Shown: positions 152-58,433 of the stretch, piece by piece
Position numbering within the stretch: position 1 is the stretch's first letter
Layout: every line of letters starts with the position of its first letter
NCBI GenBank assembly: GCA_973895155.1
Contig: OZ316896.1
Coordinates: 4,006,738 to 4,070,737 of the forward strand
Length of the DNA: 64,000 bases
From: Marsupella aquatica
Taxonomy: Eukaryota; Plantae; Marchantiophyta
Direction: 5' to 3'
Position numbers and translations under genes: made by a program
Notes under the pieces: model-generated
Databases searched by the model: none
What the model was told of the DNA's origin: nothing
Seen by the model: the letters and a program-made list of their open reading frames with translations, nothing else

Positions 152-365
152 GAAGAGCTCTTTGAGACGTGACACTTTATTTAACACTTCATTTTATCTT
201 GAGTCGTGACACTCTATTCCTGACACTTCGAGCTTATCACCTGAATGGAAACATTCAACTGGAGGGATTGAATGAATGTCAGGACTCAAGAGCTCTTCTT
301 ATTACCCAGATAGAAACTTAAAAAGCGGAGCGATTGAATGAAGTGTCACGACTCAAGAGCTCTTC
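152..365. repeat. Inverted-repeat (hairpin/MITE-like) element built from four copies of the motif GAAGAGCTCTTGAGTCGTGACAC
   Basis: 152-178 gaagagctctttgagacgtgacacttt is nearly the reverse complement of 340-365 gaagtgtcacgactcaagagctcttc. Further copies at 197-213 (direct) and 277-298 (inverted). Confidence 0.7.
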
Positions 366-495
366 ACTCTCGAGGTTTCATTCTTCCTCAGTCACTTCTT
401 CTACATCAAACCTCGTATCGTCAATCTCTCCTCTGTCCATAATTGTCTTGAGATCCTCGTTGGCATCACGATTTCGCCTCATCTAGTAGCTCACA

Positions 496-1385
496 ATGAC
501 GAGTTGGGCACTACCCGGTTGTGTTGATCGTGCGGACGGGAGCTGTGTGTGTGAAGCTCATCATCTCGTCATCTGTCCTATTTGCTGTATGGACTTTGCC
601 TTCTTACGAGTGCCCGCCTGGAGGACGGGAAAGAAAAAGAAAGGAACGGAGGTACACGTAGGAAAGTGGAGAGTCTCTGGTTCGGATGATACCCCACCAG
701 GCAATCTGAAGCTGGAGCAGAAGCCAATCGATTTCAAGTCCTGCGCTTCAATCCTCCCAGTAAGGACGACACTCCAGAAAAGCTTTTCAGTCGAGGCACT
801 ACCAGGCAAGGCTGGCGATTCATCCGTCACTCTAACCAACGCCAGATTCTGGTGTATACTGACGGAGCCTGCTCCAACAATGGCAAGACTGGAGCGGTAG
901 GTGGCTGTGCTTTGGTCTTCAAGGGTGGTGTATCTCCTGATGAGATTAAAAGCGGGAGCGCCTCCTTTCGACTCGAGGACCGCGGTCCGACCGGAATTGT
1001 GTATCCACATACCAGCAATCGTGCTGAGCTGCGGGCTGTCATCGCTGCTCTCCAATTCAAGGAATGGAGCGATGAAGGTTACGATGAGCTGGTTATCGCC
1101 ACTGATTCGGAATATGTGGAAAAGGGCGCCACGGAATGGATTGCACGATGGGGGAAAAGCGGATGGCGAACAAGGGTAAATACAGAAGTTGCAAATTGGG
1201 ATTTGTGGGAGTTGCTCTTTAAGGAAATACAGAAGTGTAAGGAGTGCCCGTGGGGAACCCTTCGTGTGATGTTTTGGCGCATTCCTCGAGGTTTGAACAC
1301 TATAGCAGATCAGGCGGCTAAGGAAGCCGCAGCGACAGGAGAGCCGCGAGACTCATTCGCCCAAATCTGCGGGGTTCTGTGTTAG
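496..1385 (+). pseudogene. Fungal-type RNase HI-like gene with Cys/His-rich N-terminus, split by a frameshift (pseudogene or assembly indel)
   Basis: ORF 496 gives CEAHHLVICPICCMDFAF. A second frame open from 690 reads FNPPSKDDTPEKLF...RFIRHSNQRQILVYTDGACSNNG...TSNRAELRAVIAAL...VIATDSEYV...NWDLWE...FWRIPRGLNTIADQAAK, which holds the RNase HI catalytic D/E/D/D motifs. The frame change lies between about 610 and 740; the few GT-AG pairs I tested did not restore the frame. Confidence 0.8.
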
Positions 1386-1807
1386 GCTCTCGAAAAGTAG
1401 ATTTGCCAGGTAAGGTCGATGAAAGCTCTACTGAACTGAAGGATGTGTAGTTCGCTATAATGCCACCCTTTCTTGTGCTTCGTCGACACCTTCAAAGAAA
1501 AGAGTATGGATGATGTTAATACATCCTGCTGTGTGTTTGCTCTTTGTTAAACAATGTCTGGAGTAGACATGCAGATGAAATATATCAAATGTTAGGATCA
1601 TCATAGAACGCTCCCGCTGCAATGGTAAGTGAACGTGGGGTCACAGTTAGGAGAGAGTTCACTTTAATCGGACAATTTGTTTGTAGAATGCCGTTTTCCG
1701 CTGCATTTCAAAGCTTTCGTCGCAATCTCGAAGCAATATGATGGCCTCTGTGCGTAGCAACCAGCACTTCAAAAATCATTCAGTTGAGCCTTTTTCTGAA
1801 TCTGAGA

Positions 1808-1943
1808 TCTTCGGAATAGATAATATCAACTGCTTTGTGCAGGCACCAGCTTGGCACCAGCTTGGCACCAGCTTGGCACCTGGCGATCTTCAATCTTCGG
1901 AATACATGATATCAATTGGTTTGTGCTGGCACCAGCATGGCAC
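1808..1943. repeat. Short duplication with internal 11-bp GGCACCAGCTT tandem repeats
   Basis: tcttcggaata...tttgtgc.ggcaccagc occurs twice (about 87 bp apart); ggcaccagctt occurs 3 times at 1842-1874. Confidence 0.6.
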
Positions 1944-3110
1944 CTCGCACTTGGTCGCGGTGGAGAAAAATGTGCTGATTTTGGTTTTGTATCTCTCGCG
2001 ATTTTAATAACTGTTGTAAATACTGTACCGATTTTTAGTACTTCGTGAGGACTGGCCAGATAGGTCCTAGTAGATTAGATTCTAGAGAGTAATTTCATCT
2101 TTGTGGAGTGGAAGTAATGTGGTGAAATGGTTGAAGAGATGCAAGTAGGCTATCAGTACCAAAACAATCCAATCTAGTCTTTGATCTCTACATCATGATG
2201 CTGTATGTATCCTGTGATTACACGAGAAATAAACTTGCTTTGGCCAGTTGTAATGTCAATTTTTGAGATTCGCTAGTGCCGCGTTGGAAAATTCATGACA
2301 ACGATCATAAAACTGGATAGTATGCTAGACTTTTGCAAGTGTTTTTCTAGGTCTAATAGTTGTATGGCAAGTCTCAGCGTTAGTCACACTCTTCTACAGA
2401 AGAAGTGGTTGTATTAGATCCACTAGTAACTCCATCAGTTTCGTTGGATTCATTACGTTCATCACTCAATATTTAGGACGGAGCAGTGTGTAAATGATGA
2501 AACCACACAAGAACCATTTGTATAAGAGAACAACGCATCTAATGTTGTCGAATTCCGGATGACGAGACCTATGAATGAAGATCGACGAGGATATCAGGGT
2601 GTCCGTAATCTGTAACGTGAATATATTAATTGCGACGTTTGACGGAACTACTGAATATGATGAGCCCCATGAATAATAACGAGCACGGGTGTGTAACTGG
2701 TCCTGAAATTAGTTTACAGTGAGCACAGTGCGCAGAACTTCAACGCTTGATACAAAATCTAATTCATCATGGTTGGTTCTAAGTGAATAACAATCGGCCA
2801 ATCCAACACTGAGACGACTTATGTAACGATTATGTAACAGCATCAAAGATTCAGAGAGAATTAATGATGATCCTGCCTCCGTGTCCTTTCACTACTACGA
2901 TGCACTCTATAGCCCTCACTCAGACAACTTACCGTCCACTCCTTTTCGTCACTCTCGCAGTCTTACTCTCCCTCTTTTGCCTCGAACGATTGTTTTGGTC
3001 ACTCTCGCAGTCTCACACTCTTTTTACCTCCAATAATCGTTTTGGTCACTCTTCTCGTTGTAGCCACTGCACCTCGGCTGCAAGAATATATTGGCTTCAG
3101 CAATAACTGA

Positions 3111-3915
3111 ATGATGTCAACTGCGGTAGCAGCTGCGGTTCTGTGCACCATTTGCGACTCTACTGGCATGCTCGGTTTCTGTGCACCATTTGCGCCCAGT
3201 GTGGCAGTGTCCGTTACTGCTCGAAATGTGCCAGCGGATCGATTGGCCGACGCACAGCTCCTGTGCAGCTCCTTCGGCAACTTCCGCGTGCCTTCAGGAC
3301 CCGTGTTCCGAAGAGGAATCCTCTTCCCCGCCTGCGGGCACATCCCCACATTCATCTGGGTCAAAATTGAGAGAAGATGTAGTTACGAGCCAAAGCTCAG
3401 CGGACTCCTAGCTGGGACCTGGAGAACCCACAAGCCGTTGGCTTTATTGCCAAGAAAATACTTCGAATAATTGGAAGCTGGCGAATATTATTGTGGTAGC
3501 ACATTGTGATATTTTTCTGAACGACGGATCGCTTCCCAACCGGAGCATGAACAAACCCAAGAGGGGACAGCATGCACACAACACAGGTGGGGAGAACCTG
3601 CTGTCGCATTCTGAATCTAGGGCCTGGACTTATTGATCACTTGTTCGTATGGTCAAATGACTCTAGCCGATTTTCCTCATACCGTGATTACTTCGTGAGC
3701 TCCTACACGAGAGCTTGACCGGAGTGGGAAAGGTTTGATTACTTCGTGAACTCCTACAGGATAGGTTGACCGGAGTCGGAAAGGTGGATGAGCTGCGATG
3801 CCGACCAATTAAGCAATGTCAAGAGCGGACAAGTACATCCCGGTCGACGTGGAAGACTTTCATGAAGTTTTTAGGATGGAGGAGCCGATTGCAATTTCCA
3901 CACTAATAGGGCCTG
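3111..3915 (+). pseudogene. Degenerate MYND-type zinc-finger gene (fungal-like)
   Basis: Across three frames: CTICD...ARF..CAQCGSVRYCSK / CQRIDWPTH / LLCSSFGNFRVPSGPVFRRGILFPACGHIPTFIWVK, the MYND consensus CxxC..CxxCxxxxYCSxxCQxxDWxxHxxxC. A downstream fragment DKYIPVDVEDFHEVFRMEEPIAISTLIG lies at about 3827-3910. Multiple frameshifts and stops. Confidence 0.7.
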
Positions 3916-5545
3916 CTCCTAATTTTCGTGCAGAAATTTCCTCCACACCAAGGAAGGATCGATGACTCCACGGCCGACTACATCAATACGAGAGACGATA
4001 GCATGCGCAACAAAGGCTAAATTCATGGAGGTTGTCATGGACTACGAGTTAAACAGAGGGATCTGTCTTGAATGGACATGTACATTTGTTTGTCATTTAA
4101 GCAACTAAATCCTAGTCAATCTGGGGAGAAAGGAGGGGCAGCTGCTGCAAGGAAAGATTTCTCGGAGTATATTGAATTCAGTCAGCTGATGAGCACTCAT
4201 TGTACAACGTAACTTAGCTAAATATCGTCAACAGGAAGCTCAGCTGCTCATGATTGTAGGCAACTTATGTTTGTACTCACTATTAGATTGTTGCCTCGCG
4301 AACCATAACCGATGGACAGTCACTGTGGATTCATGTTCATCGTCCTGTGCTGATTCCATACTCTGAAGGACACTAAGCGTCATAATTTGAGACCTGGAAA
4401 TCAGTAACACATTTAGGATGTTTTGATGGATTGTACGTCACAGAACAAAAACGAAAATTTTCAAATCCCCAGTGTGTCGAATTCCGGCTGATTTATGTCA
4501 CTTTCCGTTCTGTTCTCAAGAGATGACTCTCGATCTCCCCTGTTTGCAATATTTCTTAAGGAGTAAGATTTCCACCATCTTTACGCTCTCGACAAATATC
4601 GTGAGTATCAGATTTATCCGACAAATTCACCAATTCTACTCTAGATCTTAATACAAAACAAGATCACTCCAATTCCTTTGCACTCCATCAAGGAATACTG
4701 CAACGAACGCGTGACTGGAGTCAATAGGCAAAACTGTGCACATACTTAGAGCTCTCAATAGGCAAAACTATACACATACTACAGTTGCTATAAGGTAGCT
4801 AAGAAGTCGACGAAATGGAGTAGACGTAAACTAGTTCCGCTGCACATGGCAGAATATCAAATCCTCTTCCGCGCGATGTTGTTTAAATCTCAACACTGAT
4901 TGAGCTCCGCACCTCTGCTATTGGACGGCCACTTCCTGACAAAACCTGCGGGCTCAGCGTCCTCACCTTTCAATGCGAGCTCATGCTCACTCGTTTGGAG
5001 TGACGTCTACCGTTGCAATCATTCATGCGCCGGTCTGACTTCACTCAAATATCTCAAGTTCTCTGAAGTGTGAATGCCACTACTGCTTGATGGGTTGCAA
5101 AGGATTAGGAAATTGGTTTCAAACCTTCAGGAACCGGGACATAGAGTCAGAACATCCGTCGAAACATGTGCGCGTAATTGGCAACCTGATGCACATAGTT
5201 GCAGAACGACACAGTAGTTATGAACAAATGCAAGACAGCATATACGAGTGAGTAACGAATCCACAGTCAGCTTTAATTCTCGAGAATAATTGAGAGAACA
5301 TTTCAAATTTATGACTTATTATCTCGATCTGCTCAGATATATAGTTAACTCTTACGGTGGGAGGTAACTGGCTGCATAAAGTTTAGTCCCAGACAGTTCT
5401 ACTGATTGAAGCTGCCTCGCACAAAAACATTCGCCGCCACTTTTGACGAACTCGGCACAATTGTCTCCAAGTAATCCGGATTACAAAACGTATACGAAGG
5501 AGGCTAAAAGATATCGTGGCAAAGACAAGGACAGCTTACGAATAC

Positions 5546-5998
5546 TCAATAGCCTGAGTCCTGGCTCGAGCACTCTTGCTCTTCCGAACTGGAGTAATAT
5601 CTGCCCTGACCACCATTTTGCACGCTCGCTTGCCTCTGGCGACGTCTCTTCCGACTGTTCTTCCTAAGATCCGTTTTGCTCTGAGCCATTCGTTTCTTTA
5701 AATTCGTAACTTCCTGCTGAAGTTTCTGATTTACCTTGCGGAGACCAGCCTGGGTCTGATGCGCTTGAGCATCCTGTTTCTTTAAATTGGACACTTCCTG
5801 CTGAAGCTTCTGATTTCTCTTGCGGAGATCAACCTGGCTCTGAGAAGTTTGTTTCTTCAGGCGTGCGATTTCCTTGTGCAGTTCGCCGTTCTTAGCAAGA
5901 TAATCTTCCTTCTGGTCCAGAACAGCAAAAAATCTTTCCATCGAAACCGTGCCCGTCGCGTGAACGCCAACATGATGCCCCCGCCCCTTGTCACCCAT
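5546..5998 (-). CDS. Hypothetical coiled-coil protein with internal 28-aa repeat
   Basis: 150-aa ATG-started ORF; DLRKRNQKLQQEVSNLKK / GLRKVNQKLQQEVTNLKK repeat (84-bp DNA duplication). No family recognised. Confidence 0.45.
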   Translation of the reverse strand: MGDKGRGHHVGVHATGTVSMERFFAVLDQKEDYLAKNGELHKEIARLKKQTSQSQVDLRKRNQKLQQEVSNLKKQDAQAHQTQAGLRKVNQKLQQEVTNLKKRMAQSKTDLRKNSRKRRRQRQASVQNGGQGRYYSSSEEQECSSQDSGY

Positions 5999-8900
5999 TC
6001 TATCAGAGCTGCTGTTTCACGCGTTCTCAGTCGTGGCCGAAGACCTAGTGCCAAATTAATGCAAGTGCAGGGAAAGCTTCTGCACACAGTAATACCGTCA
6101 ACGACAACACGAAATGGACAGTCGAAACCGGAGGTCAGATCCTAGAGCCAATGGACAGTCCAAACGGAAAATGGAAGGTCGAAATGGACTGTTGCATCTC
6201 GATCCCCATTATTTCACACGACTCAAATTTCTACATTAGAAAACCAACGGAACACTGGCCATCCAGCAGCTTGACATCAATTCTCAACAGTCTAGCGTGA
6301 CTCCCACCGTACCGAGGAATTTTCAAACAAGAGGGCGCCTGTAGTTGAAGACGCACCTACAGAGGGAAGACCAAGAATCTACTACGGCAAAGACTACCAC
6401 ACCGCATTCCGTTGAGAAAGGTCGACAATTTACTTTCCAAATTGAGAAACCAAAGCTCGAGAGGGAAGGAAAGGGAAAAACCAGCTGCTGGCCGCTCACC
6501 TTCTAGCCTACCGTCGCTACGAAGCGCCTATAGATCGTTTCATCTGCTCATGGAGCTTGCAGAAGGTGCTCTGGTACCGACGCCAGCTGAGAGAAAGTGT
6601 AGGGAAGTCCAATTCAAGCTTCAGGTGGATCGGTGGACTGTTCGTTCTGTAGACCGGACTCTACACTTGGCATTCGATAATTCAGTCAATTCAGATGAAA
6701 AATGTTTCATACAATCACCGTCTCTTCCAATCGACAAAATTTCGCATCTAGCGTGACCTCTCCAAATGGTGGGCGTGCCGAAGGAACGATCAATCCACTA
6801 CAGAAGCTCTCAATCGCCCATAATTCAATCTCAGAGGCTCACAGCTGCAGTGGTTGAAAATCTGTCACCTTCGTAATTATAGAAGAGCCGCTACTAGCGT
6901 GGTGCGCGAAGAGGCTTTGGGGCCCACACGACTAAATCAGGAACGGACTGGATTTGATTTCTCTGAAAATCCGCAGTTGAATTCTTAATCGACGGCCCGG
7001 ATTTTCATAGAAACTAACATCGAGTCCTTGCGCGACAGGTGTGGATTGTGAAATATTGAACCGCACAGCTGCACAACGCTCTGTCCTCAACACTATGAGC
7101 AATCTATGAGCAAATCTGATTACATTAGACTTGCACAGCAATTATATTATACTACCAATGCGGTTGCACAAAATATGTTAATGTGAAAAAAAACTCTGTG
7201 AAAGAAAATATACTAAAGTGAGAAAGAAAAGTCAAATGAAAAAAAAATGTCAAGAAAAAAAAAAATCAAGAGTGAGTGAAAGGTATGGCCATGAAATAAA
7301 GATATCAAGGTGAGAAAAAAATGACTAGATGAGAAAAAATTAAGACGTAAAGTTAAGAAAAGATGTTGAGGCAAGCAATGGATGTCAAGGAGAGAAAGAA
7401 CAGGAGAGGTGAGAAGAAATTGGGAAGTAAGCAATACTCAAAGTAACTAGTTGGGAGAAAGCGTTTTTGAGAGAAAATGTTTTCAAGGTGAAAATATTTC
7501 AAAATGAAAGTTTGTTGAAAAGAAAATGTTGTGGTTATGTGAAAATTGCGGGTTAATAGTAGATCAATTAGTTTTGTCAATCAAAACAATTACCAAGAAA
7601 AGAGTTGCTGATTATATGTTTGGACACTTTAGAGTTTTCCATAAATGAACAATGAATAAGGGGGTCATTTCATTTGGTGAACAGTAGGTTTACTCATTAC
7701 ACAGGGTGACTTTGCTTCCTGCAGAACTAAAAAATACACTAGAATATTTTACAGAGCAAAAACCAACCTCGGGAGTGGCAAAGCCTCAGTCACTCTCTTT
7801 TTGACTTGGCACCCAACAACATCGACCCAGGGCATCAATCCAGAAGCAGCAGCAAGGTGGCAGCAGCAACCATTTGCAGAGGCGCAACTTAAGCTTCTAT
7901 AGACCTAGGCAAATGAGTGTGATTAGCCCAGACCATTATTTAGGAAGGCCACTGCCAGCCTCATTGCCCGACCTGATTGTCAAAATAAATACCAGGCAGG
8001 AAAGGAACTGCGTTGACTACTGTAGGTGCCAGTTCACTGGCATGCCAATTACTCGCTGGGGCAAGGCAGGGGTAAGGTTCAAAATCTGTTGGAGTTGTTC
8101 TTCTTTTGACACAAATACCGCCCAAAAGTGGGGTTCACTTAGCAGATCTGACACTTCACACAATTGTGATCATACACTATCTGACATATAAACAAAATTT
8201 GATTGTTGGTTCTATTCAGTAGATTGGGTTTATTCAAAAAATTTGACACTTTTTACAAAATTGACAAAGTGGGTTCTATTCAGAACTTTGGGTTTTATTA
8301 AAGAGATTTGACACAAAAAAATAAATTGTGATCCTCCATTTTTTGACACAGAAAATGTGATAGTCCACTTCTTGCGGGGCTAATTAATGAGCTTCCATAA
8401 ACACTCAGGTTGAGACAAGGTTGAGACACTTACTTACTTGATGGACCCCATGAGTGATCTAGATTTTAGATAGACCTACATAATCCTACCCAAAACCTCA
8501 TAGGGTTGAATGGGGAGAAATGTTTGGTTGGGGGTACATCAAGGAAAATGTATCCGTCAGCACACAATTCCTGTGCTTACAAAATGTTTTGATATAAAGT
8601 ATCCTATGTCAACGAGCTGTAGTAATAACCGGGCTATTTGAGCCCGAACCTGTAATAAAAACATGGAGCTGCGCGACGTCGCCAAATCATGTCCTCGTTT
8701 GGCGCGAAAACACTCGTCATCGTGATCGGATAATGAGCTCGAAAATCTGCTGATTCAGCTGGCTGTGAAGCCTCCAGAGGACCAGAGCAATCTCTCTCCC
8801 GTTCCATGACTTCCATCATTCTCGTGCATTAATTATTACCCATCTGGGCATTCGATTCCGCTCACCTGTACAATCATTTCTCCGAAACGTCTAGAATTGT

Positions 8901-9805
8901 GCTTAATTTTGAGAATGCTTTCAAATTAAAATGTTCCCTCGATCAGAGATGCTTGTATCCCTCTCCCTCACTGTGAAGCGATCAGAAGGTTCGAAGGCTT
9001 CCCTCTCTTGAACCACTTTCCCTTGCATTTCAGGCTTCTGGCGCCGCTCCACTCCTCTTGAAATTTGTTTTTGATGAAGTGCGAGCGTTCTTTCCTAGCT
9101 TTCAACGTTGAAATTGATATTCTGTGCTTTCAGCTGACTATGGAGCCGCCACTCCGATCTCTCTCCCGTTCCATCATTCGTCGTCCATTAACTATTACCC
9201 ATCCGGGCATTCGATTCCGCTCACGTGTGCAATCATTTCTCCGAAACGTCTAGAATTGTGCTCAATTTTGAGAGTGCTTTCAAATATATTCCCTCGATCA
9301 GAGATGCTTGTGTCCCTCTCCCTCTAACTGAAGCGATCAGTAGGTTCGAAGGATTCTCTTCTTGAATCACTTTCCCTTGCATTTCAGCTTCGATCTGGCG
9401 CCGCTCCACTCTTGAATTCTGTTTCTGATGAAGTGCGAGCGTTCATTCCTAGCTTTCAACGTCGAAATCGATATTCTGTGCTTTCACGAACATACGATCC
9501 TCCCTTCTTGAATCCCCTGGCCTTCCCTTGCATTGTAGCTTTCGGTGCCGCTCCACCCTTCTTGAGTTTAGTTTTTGATAAGTGCGAGCGTACATTCCTA
9601 GCTTTCAACGTTGAAATTCATATTCTGCTTTCAGGAACGTAGTGTCCTCTTTGGCGGGCGGATTTGAATGTGAGCTTGGTGAAGGGGTCAGAAGTTCTTG
9701 TCTGAGACACCTCGTGTGACCGTGTCTGCTCGTCCTTCGCAGGCCTGAGCAACATTCCACCTCGAGCTTTTTTTCTCAAAGTGAACACACTCTGAGCGTC
9801 TGAAG

Positions 9806-10471
9806 ATGGCCGCCTCCGAAAACTACCTCGTCCGCATCACTCTCACTCGTGTCAAGTACCCTGTGATCACTCGCACCCTGTCCGTTCCCAAGAACACAAC
9901 ATTTCACAAGTTTCATGAAGCAATACAAATTGCCTTCGGTTGGGCCTGTTGTCACCTATACAAGTTCGAAGTGTTGGAGCCGCGGCCAGCAAGCAGGCAT
10001 CGGACGGACCGCAAGACCGTCATCTCCTTGGAGGAGAGCCCGGAGCTGAACGAGTGGACAGAGCCAGAACCAGAGAAAAGTACTATAGTGACGTTACAAC
10101 GAGTGTGGGAAGATCCTCAATATGCCAGCAAACCGATGGAGTACCTCTACGATTTCGGTGATAATTGGGAACATGCAATTGAGAAGATTGGGACATAAAG
10201 AGGGAATGGGAAGATCAAATGTGTTGCAGGTAAAGGGCATGGCCCTGCGGAGGACTGTGGAGGGATTAGGGGCTGGGAGAATCTCAAGGCTGTGCATAGG
10301 AAAGTGTTGCGTGCAAAGGATCGAGAAGCTGCAATCCAAAGGTTGAACGAGGATGACCAGGTTGTGATAAAATGGTTTCAGAAGCATTGCTCCAATGGTG
10401 ACAGTGCGGGGTTGGATCCCAATATGTGGAGCATGGACAATGTCAACGCTCACTTATCAAGTGTGCTGTGA
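9806..10471 (+). pseudogene. Plasmid pRiA4b ORF-3-like (MM3350-like) protein, copy 1, interrupted by an in-frame TAA at 10196-10198
   Basis: RTLSVPKNTTFHKFHEAIQIAFGWACCHLYKF ... YLYDFGDNWEH. After the stop (GAA in copy 2) the frame continues CVAGKGHGPAEDCGGIRGWENLK...CSNGDSAGLDPNMWSMDNVN to TGA at 10469-10471. Confidence 0.85.
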
Positions 10472-10483
10472 ACACTGTGAGTC

Positions 10484-10631
10484 ACTGTAAATTCAGGCGG
10501 GAGTCCAGTTTGGTTTCAGTAGTTTTTGTAGCGTACACAATTTCGGAGGCAAGTAGCCACTCTAAATTCAGGCGGGAGTCCAATTTGGTTTCAGTAGTTT
10601 TTGTAGCGTACACAATTCCGGAGGCAAGTAG
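10484..10631 (+). repeat. 74-bp tandem repeat x2 just 3' of the pRiA4b-like gene (also at about 14294-14441)
   Basis: cact.taaattcaggcgggagtcca.tttggtttcagtagtttttgtagcgtacacaatt.cggaggcaagtag appears twice. Confidence 0.85.
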
Positions 10632-10811
10632 AGCATACTGTTTATGCAACGTTGAAACAATGTGAACGGGAGGCCGCAACCAGCCGCATTCGAAAGCAAT
10701 CTTAGTCGTGTACTATTCTTGAGTAGGGTCATTTTCAAATTTGCGTTCAGGAGCTCCAAATCGCCGTTGTGAGTGAATCGCTGTTGTGAGTGTGGGAGTT
10801 CTGTTTTGAGT

Positions 10812-10978
10812 TCGAGACTTACGAATCGTGGCGTTTTGGGAAGTGTTTTCAAATTTACTCAACGTGGATATGTTGTCGTGTCGAGACTTACGAATCGTGG
10901 CGTTTTGGGGAGTGCTGTCAAATTTACTCAACATGGAAATGTTGTCGTGTCGAGACTTACGAATCGTGGCGTTCTGGG
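10812..10978 (+). repeat. About 69-bp tandem repeat, ~2.4 copies
   Basis: tcgagacttacgaatcgtggcgtt recurs at about 10812, 10881 and 10950; only one full copy in the second duplication unit (about 14603). Confidence 0.8.
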
Positions 10979-12281
10979 TTAATGTGCATCGAGGGAGAAG
11001 GTTTTGCAAGCTCCTCCTATCGTCGATTTCGTATGGTGAAGAGCGTCATTTCCACAAGGCATGAATTGTTACGTTTTTATTTCAAGATTTGCAATTTTTT
11101 TGTTTGGGTATTCGATAGTGCTGGTCAGGTTGTGGCAATAAGAGGTTCCTCGTTAACCCCTCGTAGAATACTTGGAAGCTGAGGTCATTCAGCGTTGGGA
11201 TAGAGCCGAGCAAAATGCTGACGTGCGTTCGAAACTCTTGCTGCACATCAAAATATGACATGTACTATGATCTACTATATGATTCATCTACTACGTCATT
11301 TCATATTATGATAAACTTTGTTATTTTGGTTTCATTCTATGATAAACCTTGTGATTTTGGTTTTCTATGATAAATTTTGTTATTTTCTTTAAATCAAGAG
11401 TACATCATTCCATACCATGATAAAACCTTGTTAGTTTCTCATTCCATACCATGATAAACGTTGTTAGTTTCTTTAAATAAGGAGTGCATCATTCCATTAC
11501 ATACCATGATAAACCTTTTTAGTTTCTTTAAATAAGGAGTGCATCATTCCATACGTTGATAAGCTTTGTTCTTTTTTTTAAATAAATGAGTGCACATGTA
11601 TAATTAAAATGTACGGCCAAGACATTACTTGATGGACCCCATGAGTGATTCAGATTTTTGACAGACCTTAAATCATCCTACCCATAACCTCACAGGGGTG
11701 TGGTATATGTGTGTGGGTGGGAGTTCTGGAACATATGTGTGGGTGGGAGTTCTGATTACTGGCCCCTGCCACTTTGTGTCCCTCAATTAATCACTTTGTG
11801 GCTCTGATTTAATACTCTCTCCCTCCTAATGTGATTCCCTGTGCCCCTCATGAAGATTGCTGTGGCCCTCCTGAACTATGCTACACTAAATGTATGTCAC
11901 TATTGGGGTGGGGAGAGGCTACAAAGTGTTCTTACTCATTTCATTTCAAGAACCAAAAAAACCTCATATGGTTAATGGGGTTAACTGGGCAGAAAATTTG
12001 GGTTGGGGTGGGTACACCAAGGAAAATGTATTAGTCCTTTGCTTTCGAAAATGTTAGTTGATAGGAAAAAAGTGTCATATGTGAACGAGCTGTAGTACTA
12101 ACCGGGCTATTTGAGCAAGAACCTGTAATGAAAACGTGGAGCTGCGCGATGGCGCCAAATCTTGTCCTCGTTTGCAGCGACAAACACTCGTCGTCGTGAT
12201 CGGATAATGAGCTCGAGACTCTGCTGATTCAGCTGACTGTGGAACGATATCTCGCCCGTTCCATCGTTCGTCTTCCGTTAA

Positions 12282-12875
12282 GGATCGTGGGGTGATTCTT
12301 ATAGTAGCTGGCCTACCAGATCTTGCCACATAAGTAGATTTATATTTGGTAAATTTGCACCGTATTTTTGGGTGTATTTGTACACAGGTATAGGATGACA
12401 AGGCAGCAGGTGCACGTACCTTAACTAATCTCAGCCATTGAAATTGACGGTCAGATATTAGGCACGGGGAGCTTTCGATCTGGTCCATTCGATTGAGTCA
12501 ATCAATGGCCACATTAATTCGATTGAGTCAATCAATGGCCACAATCCTTAATGTATGTTTATGGCCGCCTCCTCCTCCTTAATGGGTATTTGAGCTTCCG
12601 TATGCCTCCCTGTATATGCGGGTCGACATACCGTCGCTCTAATATCCCATTAAGAAGCATGTCGCTCTAATATCCCATTAAGAAGCATGACGAGTAATGG
12701 CCACAATCCTTAATGTATGTTTATGGCCGCCTCCTCCTCCTTAATGGGTATTTGAGCTTCCGTATGCCTCCCTGTATATGTGGGTCGACATACCGTCGCT
12801 CTAATATCCCATTAAGAAGCATGTCGCTCTAATATCCCATTAAGAAGCATGACGAGACCGTAAATATATACATTA
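12282..12875. mobile_element. 594-bp insertion specific to duplication unit 2, flanked by TTAA, containing a tandemly duplicated ~165-bp MITE-like hairpin
   Basis: Unit 1 reads ...cca-ttaa-ctattaccc; unit 2 reads ccg-TTAA-[insert]-TTAA-ttactaccc. 12535-12695 is repeated at 12697-12856. Imperfect ~50-bp TIRs: taatgtatgtttatggcc...cttaatgggtatttgagc versus gctctaatatcccattaag...gaccgtaaatatatacatta. Confidence 0.65.
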
Positions 12876-13612
12876 TTAATTACTACCCATTCGGCCATTC
12901 GATTCCGCTCACCTGTACAATCATATTTACGAATTCCGAAACGTCTAGAATTGTTCTGTTTGAGAATGTTGCGCTCCATTATTTAGAAGCAAGAAACGTG
13001 GCAGGTTTCCAATTTTGCTGAATTTGTTTCCCTCGATCAGTGATGCCTATCCCTCTCCGGCCCTCCCACTGCGAACCGATCAGAAGACTCGAAGGCTCTG
13101 AATCTCCTTCCTTTGCATTCTCTTTTGGCGCCGCTCCACTCTTCTCGAGTTTGGTTTTTGATGAAGTGCGAGGTTTACAGTCCGAGCTTTCAACGTCGAA
13201 ATTGTTACTTTGCTTTCAGGAACATTAGGTACTCCCTTCTTGCATCACCTTCCCCTGCATTGTAGCTTTACATTTGCGCCGGCTCTTCTTCTTGCGTTTA
13301 CATTTTGATGAAGTGCGAGCGTACGTTCCTAGCTTTCAACGTCGAGATTGATATTCTGCTTCCAGGAACGTAGTGTCCTCTTTCGCTGGCGAACTTGGTA
13401 CATTCCTAGCTTTCAACGTCGAAATTTACGTTCTGCTTTCAGGACGTAGTGTCCCCTTTGGCGGGCGAATTTGGATGTGAGCTTGATAAAGGGATCAGAA
13501 GTGCTTGTCCGAGACACCTTCCGTGACCGTGTCTGGTCGTCCTTTGCAGGCCTGATCAAGATTCCGCCTCGAGTGCTTTTTCTCAAGGTGAACAGACTCT
13601 GAGCATCTCAAG

Positions 13613-14272
13613 ATGACCGCCTCCGAAAACTATCTCGTACGCATCACTCTCGCTCGTATCATGAATCCTGCAATCTCTCGCACCCTGTCCGTTCCCAAGA
13701 ACACGACATTTCACAAGTTTCATGAAGCAATACAAATTGCCTTCGATTGGGCCGGTTGTCACCAATACAAGTTCGATGTGCTGGAGCCGTGGCCAGCTAA
13801 TAGCTATCGCACGAATCGCATTACTCTTCTGAGCTTGAAGGAGAGCCCGGAGCTGAACGACTGGACAACACCTGAGAATAGTATCAGAGTGACGTTACAG
13901 CAAGTGTGCGACGATCCTCAATATGCCGGCAGCCGGATGCGGTACTTCTGCGAATTCGCTGACAATTGGGAACATGTGATTGAGAACATTGGGACAGAAA
14001 GCGGGAATGGGAAGATCAAATGTGTTGCCGGTGAAGGGCATGGCCCTGCGGAGGACTGTGGAGGGATGTGGGGCTGGGAGAATCTCAAGTCTGTGTCTAG
14101 GAGAGTGTTGGCGGCAGTGGATCGAAAAGCAGCAATCGAAAGTTTGAACGAGGATGACCGGGGTGTGATAAAATGGTTTCAGAATGATTGCAGCAATGGT
14201 GACAGTGCGGGGTTGGATCCTAATCAGTGGAGCATGGATGATATCAACGCTCTTTTATCAAGTGAACTATGA
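13613..14272 (+). CDS. Plasmid pRiA4b ORF-3-like (MM3350-like) protein, copy 2, open frame (fungal-like)
   Basis: 219-aa ORF with RTLSVP..TFHKFHEAIQIAFDW..CH..KF, DNWEH, CVAGEGHGPAEDCGG..GW and C-terminal CSNGDSAGLDPNQWSMDDIN. Confidence 0.85.
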   Translation: MTASENYLVRITLARIMNPAISRTLSVPKNTTFHKFHEAIQIAFDWAGCHQYKFDVLEPWPANSYRTNRITLLSLKESPELNDWTTPENSIRVTLQQVCDDPQYAGSRMRYFCEFADNWEHVIENIGTESGNGKIKCVAGEGHGPAEDCGGMWGWENLKSVSRRVLAAVDRKAAIESLNEDDRGVIKWFQNDCSNGDSAGLDPNQWSMDDINALLSSEL

Positions 14273-17200
14273 ACACTGTGAACACTGTGAGTCACTCTAA
14301 ATTCAGGCGGGAGTCCAGTTTGGTTTCAGTAGTTTTTGTAGCGTACACAATTTGGGAGGCAAGTAGCCACTCTAAATTCAGGCGGGAGTCCTGTTTGATT
14401 TCAGTAGTTTACGTAGCGTACACAATTTCGGAGGCAAGTAGAATATGCTGCTTATGCAACGTTGAAACAATGTGAACCGGAGGCCGCAACCAGCCGCATT
14501 CGAAGCAATCTTAGCCGTGTACTATTCTTTAGTAGGGTCATTTTCAGATTTCGTTCAGGAGCTCCAAATTGCCGTTGTGAGTGTGTGAGGTCTGTTTTGT
14601 GTTCGAGACTTACGAATCGTGGCGTTTTGGGGATTGTTTTCAAATTTCAAATTTCCTCAACGTGGAAATGTTGTCGTGTTGTTAGTTAATGTCTTGGACA
14701 GCTACTGGGGTTCCGGGTTAATGCGCATCGAGGGAGAAGGTTTTGCAAGCTCCTCCTATCTTGGATTTCGTATGGTGCAGAGCGTCATTTACACAAGGCA
14801 TGAATTGCTATGTCTTTATTTCAAGATTTGCGAATTTTTTGTTTGAGTATTCGAGAGTGCTGGTCAGGTTGGGTCAACAAGGCGCTTTTGTAGTGGCTCG
14901 TTGACCCCGCGTAAAATGCTTAGAAGCTGAGGTCATCCAGGGTTGTGATAGACCTCAGCTAATGGTGACGTGCCTTCGAAACTCTCCCTTGTCTGCGGAT
15001 CTCTCTGAGCTTCGGCTTATTTTGTGAAATATCCGTCTCTGCTTTTGTTTGAGACGAGAAAGCAGAGAAGCAGAGAGAAATTTGAAGGCACGGCTGCAAG
15101 GGCAGGCAAACGCCTTGTAGTTTTTCCTAGCGGCTGACGTAGCCGTACATGGCAATGAGTTGCGGGGCCGGGGACGGGGCCTAGACATTTACTTAAAGCG
15201 CAAGGATCTCAACCACAACGAGTGCCCACCAGATCAAAAATGCGTGTTGTCTTCCCGCCTAGGATGTTGTCGTTGTGCGCCTACTGTAGCCAGCGATCCT
15301 CTGAACACCCATTGCATCAGAGACTTCCGATTATATGGTAGCATTAAAATAGTACCGAGAGTAATTCTCTCAACGTTCTGAATGAAACCGGTTTTGCATG
15401 TGTAGCCAGCCTGACCAAATTCGCAAATGCAAGGGAAGCGTCTAGTGAGGTGGTTAAACTTGTGATCATCATTAGCGTTTCCAGAACTGAAGGTGAATTT
15501 CTGTCACTTTTTCTATCACGTGCTTGTATCTTGAGTTGCAGAATCGTAACGGTTCCTTCCGTAAACGTTTGGTGTTTCCAAAATAAGTCTCGTAGTCCAC
15601 AGGAAGGTATCACACCATTTTAATCGGAGAGCCAAGCCAGTCATAAGCTCACGATGATAGCCGGAGGTACTATCATTTCCGAGTACCTGCAACCTCTTCC
15701 TGTTGCATATCATCTTCCTTCTCCTTCATTACTTCCCTGCTCAAATAAACAGCTACTAGAGCTCCAATGTTCTGCAAGTTCTTTACCTTCGTTGTCCCAG
15801 GAATTGAGGCAACATCCTAACCTGGACATCGGGTCCAAGCGGGGGCAATCTGCCCTGGCATGAAACTCTTTTGTCTGCAGATAGCGGTTCGAGAAAGCTT
15901 TAATCTTTGCCAGATTCTCTGCGTGGAACTTATTGCAAGCCTTGCCAGATACCGGTTTGTAAAATATTAAGCATATAGAGCACAGCTTGTTCAGAATCGA
16001 CAGGTAAAGGTTTCTGCAGGCTAATTTCTGTGCATAGGAAACTGAGGAAACAAAAAAAAGTAAGTAATTGGAATCAGTTTTCTCCGGCTCCCACTCCTTT
16101 CAGTTTTCGAGAAAGGAGAGCCTATAGAGATTTGTCAATGCAGCAGAAGTTTATCAACGATTGACGGCACTCGAACACAATACTGGGCTTAGACTCTCGC
16201 TAACACAATATCCGGTCTGGTCCCTAGATTCTCCTGTCGCTTTTCCATCTACCGCAGTCAATTAAGAAAATGGATCTAAATGAACTGGATGTATTAGTTT
16301 TGAGCAGCCGATTCCAGGCTTTCAGTCAGCAGAATCGTCACATAGTCCTTTACAGGGCCATCTGTCTTCACAAGCAGACTGTAGATGTTTACTACAAAAC
16401 CATGAGACTCGAGATTTAGGCGAAATTGAGTCAATTTTGGCATGAACTTCAGAAGACACAAGGACTTCTCCAATAAGTTATAGTGGCTTCGCTCGGAGTC
16501 GTGCTATCCACATGACGTTGAATCTACGATTCGAACTCTTTGTCCATTCCCAACATAGATTCAGTATTGGTGGCAATCTGTACCTTCTCTCCAAGACCCA
16601 ATATCTAACATCAATCGTTTTGCAACCAGATTGACAATCGGGAGTGTTCTCATTGAAGTTGATCAACCTAGCAGAGAACAACATGAGGTTTTGGTCAACC
16701 TGCTTACGATCTGGAATCTCATGTTGCATTTTGCTAAATGGAACATTCCCTATCCCCAACTTTCTGTTTGAAGTAGTGATCGTTTGCTCATGTCGCTTAT
16801 CAGTTCTTCCTCACTGCCTGTATGTATGGATGTCAAGTTAAAAAGTTAATTGAAAAGACAAGGCTTCCATTGTGTCTCTCTACCAATTTCAAACATGCGT
16901 GAGACATAGACGAAAGAATTTCTCCTACCTCAGTCTCTAGACAAGAACGGTGTCCACGTGACAGCTCTTCCCAAAATTTTATCGTAGTCTTGGAACCCAA
17001 AAGTAGTGCACTACGCTAGTTATATTCGTGTTAGCATCAGTGGAGTTCAGTACTTGACCTATTTCTTGCATATTACTTCTGTACACCAGTAGTTGTTTTT
17101 CACCAATCCAATCGAGCATTCATGTCTCTCTAATCACCTCACAAACCTATATTATTCTTGCATCCGTTCAATGGTCTGGCAAGTAAACTTGAACAACAGC

Positions 17201-17717: not shown

Positions 17718-19574
17718 CTAATCAGCTCTGCAGTCAGGAGTGGCGGCAGGGTCAAGCTCCATAGATCCAAGTGGAACACCGTGTTCTTCTGTTTGAGAAG
17801 CACCAATTCTATGCTTTGGAATACTGTGAGAAAATTTAACCAGGTCTTCACGCTTAAATGACCTATACGATTCTATTCCGTCTTGTCTGCAGAACACAGT
17901 ATTGAAGCCTTTAACCTTAATCAGCTTCCCAGTTCTCAAACCTTCCTTATCACAAAATTCGCTAAGAATCTCCACCATGTCATACTTGTGTGTACTCCCT
18001 TCTCCTTCAAGTTTGGGACCTCCTGCTGGCCCTATCTCTTGCTCTGGATCTCTATAGACAGACCACACCTGGCCCTTCTTTGGATATACTTTAAGCAGCC
18101 CCGTCTCCACTTGGTCGAGAACAATATGTGAGAAAATTCTGATACTGTCCAGGACATCGGATTTGCCCACTTTAAAATCCCCACAAGTAATTTGAAGGCC
18201 AGTCCTCTTCGTCCATGCGATCTCCTCATCAGTTGCAGAACAAGTGTCCAGCCAATCCAAATGGGCCTTGAAGGGTTTGGTAGTAACCCTCGAGATACGA
18301 GCATAAAACCTCGGCATTCCATCTTGATCATCATAGACTGCCCAAATCTGCCCAGGAAGAATGCCCTTCTCCATTCTGGCAACATCAAAATCGTAAAACT
18401 CAGGGTCGGGAACGGAAATGTCAGAACTAAGATCGGGTACGGGGGAGAAAATCTCTTCTTCTTCAGAAACAGAATCAGGTACGAGTACGGGTAAGGAAAT
18501 CTCTTCTCTTTCAGCTTCCTCGTCACTAAAGTTTGCTCCAACTCCCAGTTTCACACGATCACTACCATCATTCACATTTGGGTTGTCCTTCCCAGAATCG
18601 TCCTTGCGGCGCTGTTTGGCGGGTTCCTTTTCATTCCCCACCACCTCCACCCTAATGAAATATTCAGCACCATCTTTCAATTTGGTTCGCTTGACAAGTC
18701 GAAAGTCTTCCAACTCTGCAGCCACCTGTTTCTGTAATGATTGTATTTTCAAATCATCCTCCTTTGCTTTCCTTTTCATAGCTTTTCTTGCAGACGCATA
18801 CTTCGACGTTGTTGCCCTTCTCTTTTTTTCCAGAACTTCAATCGACCTGGACTTGTCGGCCAGTAGTTTCTGTAATGACTCTATTTCGAGCTCATCTTCC
18901 TCTGCTTTGCTCGTCATAGCTGCTATTGAATATGCGAATCTCGATTCAATCTCCGCAGTTGCTTTCCTCCGTATAGCTTCAATGTTAATATTCTTCTCTC
19001 CCATCTCATCCGTTAACTCCTGTGCTGTCCTCCGTATAGCTTCCATCTCCATAACCTTCTGTCCCATCTCGTGCCTTACTTCCTGTGCTTCTCTCTGCAA
19101 AGCTTGATTCTCTTTCATGACTTTGAACACAATCCCTTTCAGCAGCTCAATTTTCCACTTGTCCACCTCTCCTTTCCTTTGGACAATTTGTGATTCCAAA
19201 CTCTCTCTCAACTGATCCGGTACTAACGCCTGCGCTTTCTTCAGCACCTCAATATGCAAATTCTTCTCCCCCAGATTTATGAGCACGTCCTCTACTCTAG
19301 CTTTTCCAATGCTCCAGTTTTCCGTCCTCTCCATGATCGATTTCAAATGCTGCCTGGCGAGCCGATCATACCGTCTGGGAGTCTCATCTAGCAGCTGTAA
19401 AAGCACGCAAGAGCTCCCCCCTAGCAAGTCCGGATCATCCATGGATGGAGAGAGTCGTGGGAGGAGAACGTCAACTGTGCTTTTCTCAGGCCCTCCTTCC
19501 ACTTTGACATTCACTTGCTTCTCTCGGTCCTCCACCGTTCCCCCATTTGCTTTTGTCGAAGATACATTTGTCAT
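17718..19574 (-). CDS. Coiled-coil protein with C-terminal DUF3444 domain (intronless)
   Basis: 618-aa ORF. C-terminal VPDPEFYDFD...GQIWAVYDDQDGMPRFYARI...CGDFK...FSH...YPKKGQVWSVY...YDMVEILS...FSHSIP...ELDPAATP is the plant DUF3444 signature. N-terminal half is K/E-rich heptad sequence; no J-domain HPD seen. Confidence 0.9.
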   Translation of the reverse strand: MTNVSSTKANGGTVEDREKQVNVKVEGGPEKSTVDVLLPRLSPSMDDPDLLGGSSCVLLQLLDETPRRYDRLARQHLKSIMERTENWSIGKARVEDVLINLGEKNLHIEVLKKAQALVPDQLRESLESQIVQRKGEVDKWKIELLKGIVFKVMKENQALQREAQEVRHEMGQKVMEMEAIRRTAQELTDEMGEKNINIEAIRRKATAEIESRFAYSIAAMTSKAEEDELEIESLQKLLADKSRSIEVLEKKRRATTSKYASARKAMKRKAKEDDLKIQSLQKQVAAELEDFRLVKRTKLKDGAEYFIRVEVVGNEKEPAKQRRKDDSGKDNPNVNDGSDRVKLGVGANFSDEEAEREEISLPVLVPDSVSEEEEIFSPVPDLSSDISVPDPEFYDFDVARMEKGILPGQIWAVYDDQDGMPRFYARISRVTTKPFKAHLDWLDTCSATDEEIAWTKRTGLQITCGDFKVGKSDVLDSIRIFSHIVLDQVETGLLKVYPKKGQVWSVYRDPEQEIGPAGGPKLEGEGSTHKYDMVEILSEFCDKEGLRTGKLIKVKGFNTVFCRQDGIESYRSFKREDLVKFSHSIPKHRIGASQTEEHGVPLGSMELDPAATPDCRAD

Positions 19575-31195: not shown

Positions 31196-32591
31196 TCAAC
31201 TCGAGAGATGACTTTCATGCGCCTCATGTGCATTCAGCGCAAATCCCACGGCCTCGTAGGTGTAGACCACAACGATCTCCATGATGATGGCCATGCAGAG
31301 CCAGACCGTGACACTGCCGGACATTAGATTGAAAGCTGGGAGAGTTTCTGAGTCGAACGAGGAGAGGGAGGAGTAGATGATCCGCACGAGGAGGAATGGC
31401 AGAGAGAGGGCAACGGCAAGGAGCAGACTCTTGTCTTCTGGCTCCGCATGGGAGAGATTGCCTGACGAGAGGACTGCCGCGAGGACGATCAGAACGTAGG
31501 CGATTATGAACAGCCCGACGGCTGCCTTGCCCGGTGGGAGGACAGTGTACTTCCCAGTGTTCTGCAGCTGCTCACCCGCCTTCACGCCCCCAGCGATGCC
31601 GATGACGAGTGCCGACCCGATGAGCACCTGAGGAAAATTTTCACTCTGATGAGAGGCTATCCTTGTTATTTGGATGGCAAGATTGAGGAATGATTTGGAT
31701 AAGATCAAATTACACAAGAACTATGCATGTTGGACGGTGGGCAAGATGCAAGTTCTTTGAAGCAACTCACAACTGTCCTGACACCGTCCAACATGCATAG
31801 TTCTTGTCATCCCTCCCCATTTCTTTGTTTCTTCGAGCTTCAGAATCTAACAATTGACATCTTGCTTGGGTTCTGTGAACTATAAGCAATAACAGTAGAT
31901 CGCTAACCCCGAAGACAATTACCCCCTAGGGTATCAATTTCTCTTCCTTTACCAGATTGACTCTTCAACACTATTTCCCCTTCCGACTATTCCTTGGCTA
32001 GGATAGGATTAGCCATAAAGAGATTGTAAATTTTCGTCTCCTAAGCCAAATTCACCACTCACATTTCCTTCCTTCAACTCATTCCACTGATTCGTCTCGA
32101 CAAGGGGGACATTTAAGTGGGTGAAAAATGTGAGGATTGTGGTGTGTTGCGTGCACACCTTGATGTTTGTGTTGTTTCCCCTGAACACTTGACCTTCTGT
32201 CACGGCTGAGGACTGAACAATGTGGGAGTGTAAAATTGACCTGAATGAATTTCAGCACCACTGTAGAGGGCAATGATGGTTGCCCAAGGTTTCGGTTGAT
32301 GCCCATTATGATGCGGTTCAGGAAGGTCAGGGCTGTCATCATGAGAGGACACAGCCCAATGTTCTGAACGATTGCGGAGGCAGTTAAAATATGGATTCTA
32401 ATGTGGTCGCTCATTGTTGCTGCGAGCTCGAGGCAGGAACCGATGATTCGCACCAGGGAGAAGACGATGAGGAAGAACCATCCACTCTTGATGCCGTGGC
32501 GGATGACGAGCAGGACGGCCATGGCTAGAGCTGGCGCGTAGACGACAATCTCGCCAATGGATACACCGTTTCGATAGCTGATAGCAACCAT
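31196..32591 (-). CDS. Multi-pass (about 7 TM) membrane protein resembling the fungal DUF7702 family; 2 exons (32591-32241, 31627-31196), 260 aa
   Basis: Exon 1 MVAISYRNGVSIGEIVVY...RHGIKSGWFFLIVFSLVRIIGS...QNIGLCPL...KFIQ joins in phase 0, through a CAG|GT...CAG| intron of 613 nt, to VLIGSALVIGIAGG...LLAVALSLPFLLVRIIYS...FNLMSGSVTVWLCMAIIMEIVVV. No stops. Confidence 0.85.
31714..31807. repeat. Perfect 26-bp inverted repeat with 42-nt loop inside the intron
   Basis: acaagaactatgcatgttggacggtg (31714-31739) is the exact reverse complement of caccgtccaacatgcatagttcttgt (31782-31807). Confidence 0.9.
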
Positions 32592-58431: not shown

Positions 58432-58433
58432 AT

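What the first reader, a model, noticed from the sequence alone, without database searches (positions are those of the whole stretch)
496..14272. Candidate fungus-derived gene island (RNase H, MYND finger, pRiA4b-ORF3 x2) inside a land-plant chromosome
Seen: four intronless genes or pseudogenes on the same strand in 14 kb, with no recognisable core plant gene among them, on a contig that otherwise carries clear plant genes (DUF3444, trihelix, KASII, plant copia). Recalled knowledge: each has features I associate with Pezizomycotina families, namely RNase H with an N-terminal CxxHxxxxCxxCC motif and a FWRIPR tail, MYND followed by RxILFP...FIW, and MM3350-like proteins ending NGDxxGLDP.xW. Inference: a block or hotspot of horizontally acquired fungal genes, possibly delivered together by a large fungal mobile element, now duplicating and decaying in the plant.
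Basis: partly seen in the sequence, partly recalled or inferred. Interest (0 to 1): 0.85.

Follow-up and report, generated by a model that had tools for sequence, protein, structure and literature searches.

The report
Old fungal gene cluster in liverworts
A plant chromosome, likely a leafy liverwort's, carries a small cluster of damaged genes, two of whose families have their closest named relatives in the liverwort Calypogeia and then in sac fungi; the same two families appear to be neighbours in Calypogeia too, so they likely came from a fungus together long ago, a new example of a known kind of gene transfer.

Summary
The four reading frames are real and lie on plant DNA, but they are three gene families: the two pRiA4b-ORF3 copies are one tandem duplication. 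All four are damaged (RNase H frameshift; MYND gene with many breaks; pRiA4b copy 1 stop; copy 2 three changes in an almost invariant motif). For RNase H and pRiA4b the best hits are Calypogeia fissa (58-69% identity), then Pezizomycotina; window and Calypogeia copies form one clade in both trees. In C. fissa the two families lie on the same two contigs, 4 and 8 accession numbers apart: the linkage is likely older than this species. Contamination is unlikely: flat depth and a contig bridging into DUF3444 in one run, four holder runs. Against a neat story: AU tests do not prove nesting inside fungi, no fungal locus holds both families (0 of 29), no Starship captain is seen, the MYND gene's origin is untested, and a fifth fungal-family gene (DUF7702) sits outside the island among plant genes. 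Fungus-to-bryophyte transfer is well known. New member of a known kind; interest 0.48.

The parts
496..737 (+). RNase H gene, 5' part: small Cys/His domain (C-x2-H-x4-C-x2-C-x2-D, likely zinc-binding) and linker, ending in a frameshift just after ...EQKPIDF
   Evidence: tblastn of Calypogeia and fungal homologs hits 496-609 in this frame; break seen; motif in 62 of 120 hits; N-terminal block folds with pLDDT 83-90 in a model of homolog P0004
738..1385 (+). RNase H gene, catalytic domain in another frame; D-E-D-D at 861, 1026, 1104, 1308 intact; no ATG in this frame before the catalytic residues
   Evidence: Pfam PF00075; 69% and 65% to C. fissa P0001/P0002; residues; homolog model matches human RNase H1 / E. 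coli RNase HI, E 2e-12
3111..4105 (+). MYND-finger pseudogene with several frameshifts, stops and a small internal repeat; end is approximate; family and origin of the part after the finger not established
   Evidence: no homolog found
8500..11238 (+). Duplicated unit 1 (upstream repeats, pRiA4b gene, 3' flank)
9806..10471 (+). pRiA4b-ORF3 (MM3350-like, PF07929) copy 1, in-frame TAA at 10196-10198
11975..14985 (+). Duplicated unit 2
13613..14272 (+). pRiA4b-ORF3 copy 2, open frame of 219 aa, but Y-C-E-F-A-D where 93-98% of relatives have Y-x-Y-D-x-G-D (three conserved residues replaced)
   Evidence: PDB 2i1s E 4.4e-11
17718..19574 (-). DUF3444 plant gene: the nearest plant anchor, bridged to the 3' flank of unit 2 by one contig (14731-18330) of run X1
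31196..32591 (-). DUF7702 membrane-protein gene, intact, 260 aa, one 613-nt GT-AG intron (exons 32591-32241, 31627-31196); fungal family by recall; outside the island, between trihelix and F-box genes
   Evidence: Pfam PF24800 E 3e-30 and 1e-37 for the two exons; splice check; no homolog search was left for it

Best explanation
This is a cluster of three gene families on plant DNA, likely a leafy liverwort's, that likely entered an ancestor shared with Calypogeia as one piece of ascomycete DNA and has since duplicated and decayed in this genome. Shown: the genes, their breaks, the duplication, their membership of Pezizomycotina-type RNase H and pRiA4b subfamilies, one liverwort clade per family. 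Inferred: direction fungus to plant (from distribution and divergence), a single co-transfer (from the apparent linkage in C. fissa), ordinary illegitimate integration followed by birth-and-death of copies, with no sign of the vehicle left. Function: an intact copy of the RNase H is predicted to cut the RNA strand of RNA:DNA hybrids, with a small Cys/His domain in place of the usual hybrid-binding domain; the allele in the window would make no catalytic domain, while better-kept copies likely exist elsewhere in the genome and in a related organism. MYND and pRiA4b would act as partner or adaptor modules of that accessory system (inferred only from fungal domain fusions).
For: RNase H: of the 120 best of 951 hits, 40 carry a species name: 2 C. 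fissa (ranks 1-2), 38 Pezizomycotina, no other plant. pRiA4b: of 25 of 150 hits looked up, 1 C. fissa (rank 1), 8 ascomycete, 1 bacterial, 15 without species. Liverwort clades SH-aLRT 99 and 100. RNase H identity liverwort-fungi 50% (72 pairs), between fungal classes 52% (226 pairs), to phage/bacterial RNase HI 33%. C. fissa contig 18,966,709: CAM6096832 (pRiA4b) and CAM6096836 (RNase H); contig 9,444,519: CAM6111448 and CAM6111454 (RNase H), CAM6111462 (pRiA4b); with at least 14,630 accessions in that annotation, a distance of 4 or less has a chance under 1 in 1,800 if unlinked. Run X1: the eight listed contigs from RNase H to DUF3444 have depth 14.6-18.7, one bridges 14731-18330; four runs, two studies, two organism labels hold 71-94% of sampled words. 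No GC step at the island. Decay: dN/dS between pRiA4b copies 0.76, p 0.23 against 1; a paralog in X2 keeps the homolog residue at 8 of 14 replaced positions; X3 and X4 contigs over the RNase H break are 4 letters longer than the window. Fungal fusions MYND-RNase H (L012, L013; Atlas cluster of 92 ascomycete proteins), MYND-pRiA4b (11 of 151 hits), and both with one unnamed 200-aa domain.
Against: AU tests do not reject the liverwort clade lying outside all fungal rows (RNase H p 0.46; pRiA4b p 0.72 with that tree scoring 7.8 higher), so nesting and direction are not shown by the trees. None of 29 fungal-type RNase H loci (320 kb in all, several duplicates, many short) holds a pRiA4b gene, so no donor block was found. 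Linkage in C. fissa rests on accession order, not on read DNA, and its two contigs are probably copies of one region (one observation). The MYND gene found no homolog and is not shown to be in the C. fissa cluster. The DUF7702 gene shows that fungal-family genes also occur singly in this window. X1 may be the window's own sample; no listed contig of X2-X4 bridges island and plant gene. MYND fuses with many domains in fungi (recalled; also SET and DUF4470 rows), which weakens the fusion link. The Atlas feature search returned bacterial pRiA4b clusters first.
Confidence: 0.6

Rival explanations
1. Hotspot: the families came from fungi in separate transfers and piled up in one permissive, repeat-rich region early enough to be shared with Calypogeia.
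For: No fungal locus with both families (0 of 29); a separate intact DUF7702 gene 17 kb away among plant genes; bryophytes average 229 transferred families per species, often near LTRs (PMC12513842, section 8 read).
Against: Same strand, no plant gene between; apparent linkage in C. fissa; the same three domains are fused to each other in ascomycetes.
Confidence: 0.25
2. The block is the remnant of a Starship giant transposon that jumped from a fungus into a liverwort.
For: Donor group fits (Starships are Pezizomycotina elements, PMC11162782 passages); cargo would be accessory genes like these; the left edge is outside the window, so a captain could lie upstream.
Against: No DUF3435 among window ORFs scanned; 0 inverted-repeat pairs of 25 nt or more in 1-20000; 0 PRiA4 rows in the readable, cut part of the Starship cargo table; no DUF3435 in 111 ORFs near fungal relatives.
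Confidence: 0.07
3. pRiA4b came straight from a bacterium or virus, and only RNase H from a fungus.
For: PF07929 is mainly prokaryotic; Atlas top three clusters are 94-100% bacterial; AU test cannot place the root.
Against: Best sequence hits after C. fissa are ascomycete (33-42%) and share the C-terminal C-x-N-G-D-x-x-G-L tail that the bacterial-type rows lack; no relative in viral contigs; viral RNase H hits only 29-43% on partial matches.
Confidence: 0.04
4. Assembly artefact: fungal contaminant DNA joined to a plant contig.
For: Field-collected bryophytes carry heavy fungal contamination (PMC11228847 passages); no single contig spans the whole stretch.
Against: Closest relatives are on 9 and 19 Mb contigs of another liverwort; only about 50% identity to any fungus; flat depth and bridging contig in X1; four holder runs; sparse, repeat-rich, pseudogenised layout unlike the gene-dense fungal loci.
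Confidence: 0.02
5. Vertical inheritance from early eukaryotes with loss in other plants.
For: AU tests allow the liverwort clade to be sister to all fungal rows.
Against: Liverwort-fungus divergence equals divergence between Pezizomycotina classes (identity 50% vs 52%, path 1.9 vs 1.8); no other plant among 40 named RNase H hits (only 120 of 951 were listed).
Confidence: 0.02

Closest known systems
Fungus-to-bryophyte horizontal gene transfer (Dong et al. 2025, PMC12513842: RDS1, YANB, EUPF, FB lectin in liverworts; fungal-type terpene synthase cluster of Marchantia, PMC12890914; NAS, PMC12454661)
   Same: Ascomycete-type genes in a bryophyte nuclear genome, short and intron-poor, near LTR elements, later duplicated in tandem.
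   Different: Here different families appear linked and the linkage appears shared between genera; the cited clusters are copies of one family. These families were not found named in the texts read; the paper's HGT tables could not be opened.
Fungi-derived genomic regions in mosses (Sun et al. 2020, doi 10.1111/nph.16776; title seen in reference lists and one sentence in PMC11228847; paper not held)
   Same: Regions of fungal origin in a bryophyte genome.
   Different: Moss, HET-domain genes; here liverwort, RNase H / MYND / pRiA4b.
Type 1 RNase H (PF00075; E. coli RNase HI, human RNase H1)
   Same: Fold and D-E-D-D catalytic set.
   Different: N-terminal Cys/His domain; W-x-I-P-R-x-x-N-x-x-A-D in 111 of 120 hits where canonical RNase H1 has a histidine loop (canonical motif recalled); accessory fungal subfamily, sometimes fused to MYND.
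Starship elements (PMC11162782)
   Same: Pezizomycotina source; accessory cargo.
   Different: No captain, no terminal repeats, no empty site seen.

Membership tests
Type 1 RNase H (PF00075) | Profile match above cut-off and RNase H fold | tested here: met
   80.7 bits vs 25.8; homolog model matches RNase H1 structures
Type 1 RNase H (PF00075) | Four acidic catalytic residues D-E-D-D | tested here: met
Type 1 RNase H (PF00075) | Intact reading frame giving the enzyme | tested here: not met
   Frameshift near 737; identical in runs X1 and X2
Type 1 RNase H (PF00075) | Cleavage of RNA in RNA:DNA hybrids | not testable with these tools
   needs an assay of an intact homolog
pRiA4b-ORF3 / MM3350-like (PF07929) | Profile match | tested here: met
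   83.9 and 100.5 bits vs 26.6; 2i1s
pRiA4b-ORF3 / MM3350-like (PF07929) | Conserved Y-x-Y-D-x-G-D-x-W-x-H motif in an open frame | tested here: not met
   copy 1 keeps the motif but has a stop; copy 2 departs at 4 of 43 conserved columns, three in this motif
MYND finger (PF01753) | C-x2-C ... C-x2-C ... Y-C ... C-Q-x3-W-x2-H-x3-C pattern | tested here: met
   only when read across breaks with X, on a profile of my own; no Pfam hit per frame
Fungus-to-plant horizontal transfer | Closest non-recipient relatives are fungal | tested here: met
   RNase H and pRiA4b; MYND and DUF7702 not shown
Fungus-to-plant horizontal transfer | Supported nesting inside the donor clade | tested here: inconclusive
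   nested in the free trees; AU p 0.46 and 0.72
Fungus-to-plant horizontal transfer | Physical linkage to plant genes, host-like depth | tested here: met
   run X1 only, which may be the window's own sample; homologs on Mb-size C. fissa contigs
Fungus-to-plant horizontal transfer | Absence from most plants | tested here: inconclusive
   no other plant among named hits seen, but 120 of 951 and 25 of 150 only
Starship | DUF3435 captain at the 5' end | tested here: inconclusive
   none in the window; DNA left of position 1 not available
Starship | Terminal direct / inverted repeats and an empty site | tested here: inconclusive
   0 inverted pairs of 25 nt or more; short terminal repeats and empty sites cannot be judged without both ends
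Giant-virus or phage insertion | Close viral relatives or viral hallmark genes | tested here: not met

The most novel reading that the evidence does not exclude
RNase H, MYND and pRiA4b are parts of one uncharacterised ascomycete module that acts on RNA:DNA hybrids (they are fused to each other and to a common unnamed domain in fungi); the whole module crossed into leafy liverworts as one piece, possibly on a Starship, and has been kept linked and functional in several lineages while copies turn over.
Probability: 0.2. Interest if true: 0.78.

Novelty: new member of a known kind. Interest (0 to 1): 0.48.

Why it matters
Most reported fungus-to-bryophyte transfers are listed gene by gene. A multi-family block whose linkage appears to survive in two liverwort genera gives a direct handle on two open questions: whether fungal DNA enters plants in multi-gene pieces, and by what vehicle. 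It also points to an unstudied ascomycete domain set (Cys/His-RNase H, MYND, pRiA4b, an unnamed 200-aa domain). Because the copies in this window are damaged, adaptive value is not shown.

Tried and rejected
MYND homolog search with piece 3111-3467, longer proteins, found nothing at E 10 (weak evidence); the Atlas gave no answer for that piece, so the family of the MYND gene stays open. The place of the four extra letters in the X3/X4 contigs was not seen; that they lie at the RNase H break is an inference. No RNA holder listed: says nothing on expression. Word-index search for pRiA4b found 1 unnamed hit only. Whole-record searches of fungal contigs for PF07929 and DUF3435 were not possible, records not held. 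Viral origin rejected. GC and GC3 do not separate island from host (island genes GC3 0.53-0.58, plant genes 0.46-0.55, DUF7702 0.69). A weak MYND-piece hit in L015 (E 0.017) taken as chance. Coiled-coil ORF 5546-6016 gives only non-specific sub-threshold hits. Tree rows dropped: L008, L025, L104, L118 (in-frame stops); trees used 43 of 120 RNase H hits and 64 of 151 pRiA4b hits, and the 20 'bacterial-type' outgroup rows were chosen by motif (1 of 3 looked up carried a bacterial name). Earlier findings of the scan: none in three look-ups. Literature: ten searches listed no paper on this cluster; Dong et al. supplementary tables were too large to read and may list these families.
Full report
WHAT IS THERE. 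Four intronless + strand genes lie at 496-1385, 3111-~4105, 9806-10471 and 13613-14272. The first is an RNase H (Pfam E 1.6e-22) with all four acidic catalytic residues but a frameshift near 737 that separates a small N-terminal Cys/His domain from the catalytic part, whose frame has no ATG before the active site. The second is a broken MYND-finger gene: no single frame reaches Pfam, but the adjacent pieces at 3191-3267 are the two best places in the window for a MYND profile built from six fetched domains, and the read-through scores 47.8 bits against at most 4.5 in 500 shuffles. The third and fourth are pRiA4b-ORF3 (MM3350-like) genes inside a tandemly duplicated unit, 8500-11238 and 11975-14985. 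Copy 1 has a stop at 10196; copy 2 is open but departs at 4 of 43 conserved columns against 1 of 43 for copy 1 and for Calypogeia P0271; dN/dS between the copies is 0.76, not distinguishable from 1. Plant genes follow from 17.7 kb: DUF3444, trihelix, F-box, KAS, copia. Pfam scans of 10, 12 and 122 window frames found no transposase or DUF3435.

IS IT PLANT DNA. No whole genome is held. Five runs hold the stretch 8500-18400, four of them 71-94% of sampled words, from two studies and two organism labels. In X1, which may be the window's own sample, the eight listed contigs from RNase H to DUF3444 have depths 14.6-18.7 and no differences, and one contig covers 14731-18330, from the 3' flank of the second pRiA4b unit into the DUF3444 domain. 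No listed contig spans the whole stretch, and none of X2-X4 bridges island and plant gene. X3 and X4 (organism B) differ by substitutions and indels; their contigs over the RNase H break are four letters longer than the window (920 over 916, 640 over 636), the amount that would keep the frame open, though the place of the letters was not seen. A diverged RNase H copy in X2 keeps the homolog residue at 8 of 14 replaced positions, so the window's copy is the drifting one. GC shows no step.

RELATIVES. RNase H: 951 hits, 120 listed, 40 with a species name: two Calypogeia fissa proteins first (69%, 65%), then 38 Pezizomycotina at 44-52% (the 24 used in the tree span six classes, assigned from recall). 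pRiA4b: 4,446 hits, 150 listed; of 25 looked up, the first is C. fissa (58%), 8 are ascomycetes, 1 bacterial, 15 have no species. The Atlas feature search gave bacterial clusters first. The host is therefore likely a liverwort related to, but distinct from, C. fissa (inference). In both trees the window and Calypogeia copies, with two or three unnamed sequences, form one clade (SH-aLRT 99 and 100) among fungal rows. The AU tests do not reject placing that clade outside all fungal rows (p 0.46; p 0.72, and that tree scored higher), so the direction rests on distribution and on divergence: liverwort-fungus identity 50% equals the 52% between fungal classes, against 33% to phage and bacterial RNase HI. 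Viral contigs hold only distant RNases H and no pRiA4b relative.

IS IT A BLOCK. The strongest new evidence: in C. fissa the two families share contigs and have close accession numbers: CAM6096832 (pRiA4b) and CAM6096836 (RNase H) on the 18,966,709-base contig; CAM6111448, CAM6111454 (RNase H) and CAM6111462 (pRiA4b) on the 9,444,519-base contig. Accession order is a proxy for gene order, and the two contigs are probably copies of one region, so this is one observation; chance is under 1 in 1,800. In fungi, 0 of 29 loci of this RNase H subfamily (319,599 bases, some duplicates, many short) carry pRiA4b. But the domains meet in fusions: MYND-RNase H in L012 and L013, a MYND neighbour in L002/L003, an Atlas cluster of 92 ascomycete proteins with RNase_H (100%) and zf-MYND (82%), MYND-pRiA4b in 11 of 151 hits by my profile (three of them helped build it; Pfam confirms P0162, weakly P0133, not P0173), and one unnamed 200-aa domain fused to either family (E 3e-20). 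Against a closed island: an intact DUF7702 gene with a 613-nt intron sits at 31196-32591 between plant genes; that this family is fungal is recalled, not tested.

HOW IT MOST LIKELY WORKS. A piece of ascomycete DNA likely integrated in a liverwort ancestor shared with Calypogeia and has since undergone birth-and-death: tandem duplication of pRiA4b here, of RNase H in C. fissa, loss of function of individual copies. An intact RNase H copy is predicted to cleave RNA in RNA:DNA hybrids; a model of the unnamed homolog P0004 (mean pLDDT 87) matches human RNase H1 and E. coli RNase HI and shows a separately folded N-terminal block carrying C, H, C, C, D residues (62 of 120 hits), likely zinc-binding. 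Roles of MYND and pRiA4b are inferred only from the fusions. Confidence 0.6 for co-transfer, about 0.9 for fungal origin of at least RNase H and pRiA4b; hotspot 0.25; Starship 0.07.

COMPARISON WITH WHAT IS KNOWN. Dong et al. 2025 (PMC12513842; passages and section 8 read; main supplements too large) report 229 transferred families per bryophyte species on average, intron-poor and near LTRs, with several fungal genes in liverworts. Passages were read of PMC11228847, PMC12454661, PMC12448838, PMC12890914 and PMC11162782 (supplement searched, cut when stored, 0 PRiA4 rows). Sun et al. 2020 on fungi-derived regions in mosses was seen only as a title and one citing sentence. Ten searches listed no paper on this cluster. 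It works like known fungus-to-bryophyte transfers; it is not shown to be a Starship.

VERDICT. Observation partly confirmed, interpretation partly supported. A real, likely old, decaying fungal-type cluster with apparent linkage across liverwort genera: new member of a known kind, interest 0.48; the bolder reading (a whole fungal module moved and kept) has probability 0.2 and would deserve 0.78.

Noticed in passing
window 31196-32591 (-): Intact DUF7702 membrane-protein gene with one 613-nt GT-AG intron and GC3 0.69, a family recalled as fungal, between the trihelix and F-box genes: a further transfer candidate outside the island.
   Followed up: partly
L012:4870-7116, L013:8813-11251, P0144, P0173, P0178: An unnamed ascomycete domain of about 200 aa (no Pfam; weak ThuA-like leads in the Atlas) is fused to either this RNase H family or pRiA4b; not present in the window.
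   Followed up: partly
window 1072-1250, runs X2-X4: Contigs of a second, diverged RNase H copy exist in the same organisms; in X2 it keeps conserved residues that the window's copy has lost.
   Followed up: partly
window 57993-63593: Copia LTR retrotransposon, LTRs 93% identical over 439 nt, two in-frame stops in gag-pol; related LTR-like pieces near 24146-25065.
   Followed up: no
   Followed up: no
window 5546-6016 (-): 156-codon frame with two 28-aa coiled-coil repeats inside the island; only non-specific hits.
   Followed up: partly
window ~7000-7400 and ~11240-12600: High-copy repeats (summed contig depth many times the background) interrupt the island, one of them between the two duplicated units.
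   Followed up: no
window 19762-22308: Tandem arrays with periods of about 142 and 150 nt upstream of DUF3444.
   Followed up: no
P0122 (C. fissa CAM6096832): This Calypogeia pRiA4b copy has C for the conserved W and ends 19 residues earlier than P0271, a hint of decay there too.
   Followed up: no
window 27569-27910 (+): Weak sub-threshold hit to class I tRNA synthetase (E 6e-4), possibly a gene fragment.
   Followed up: no
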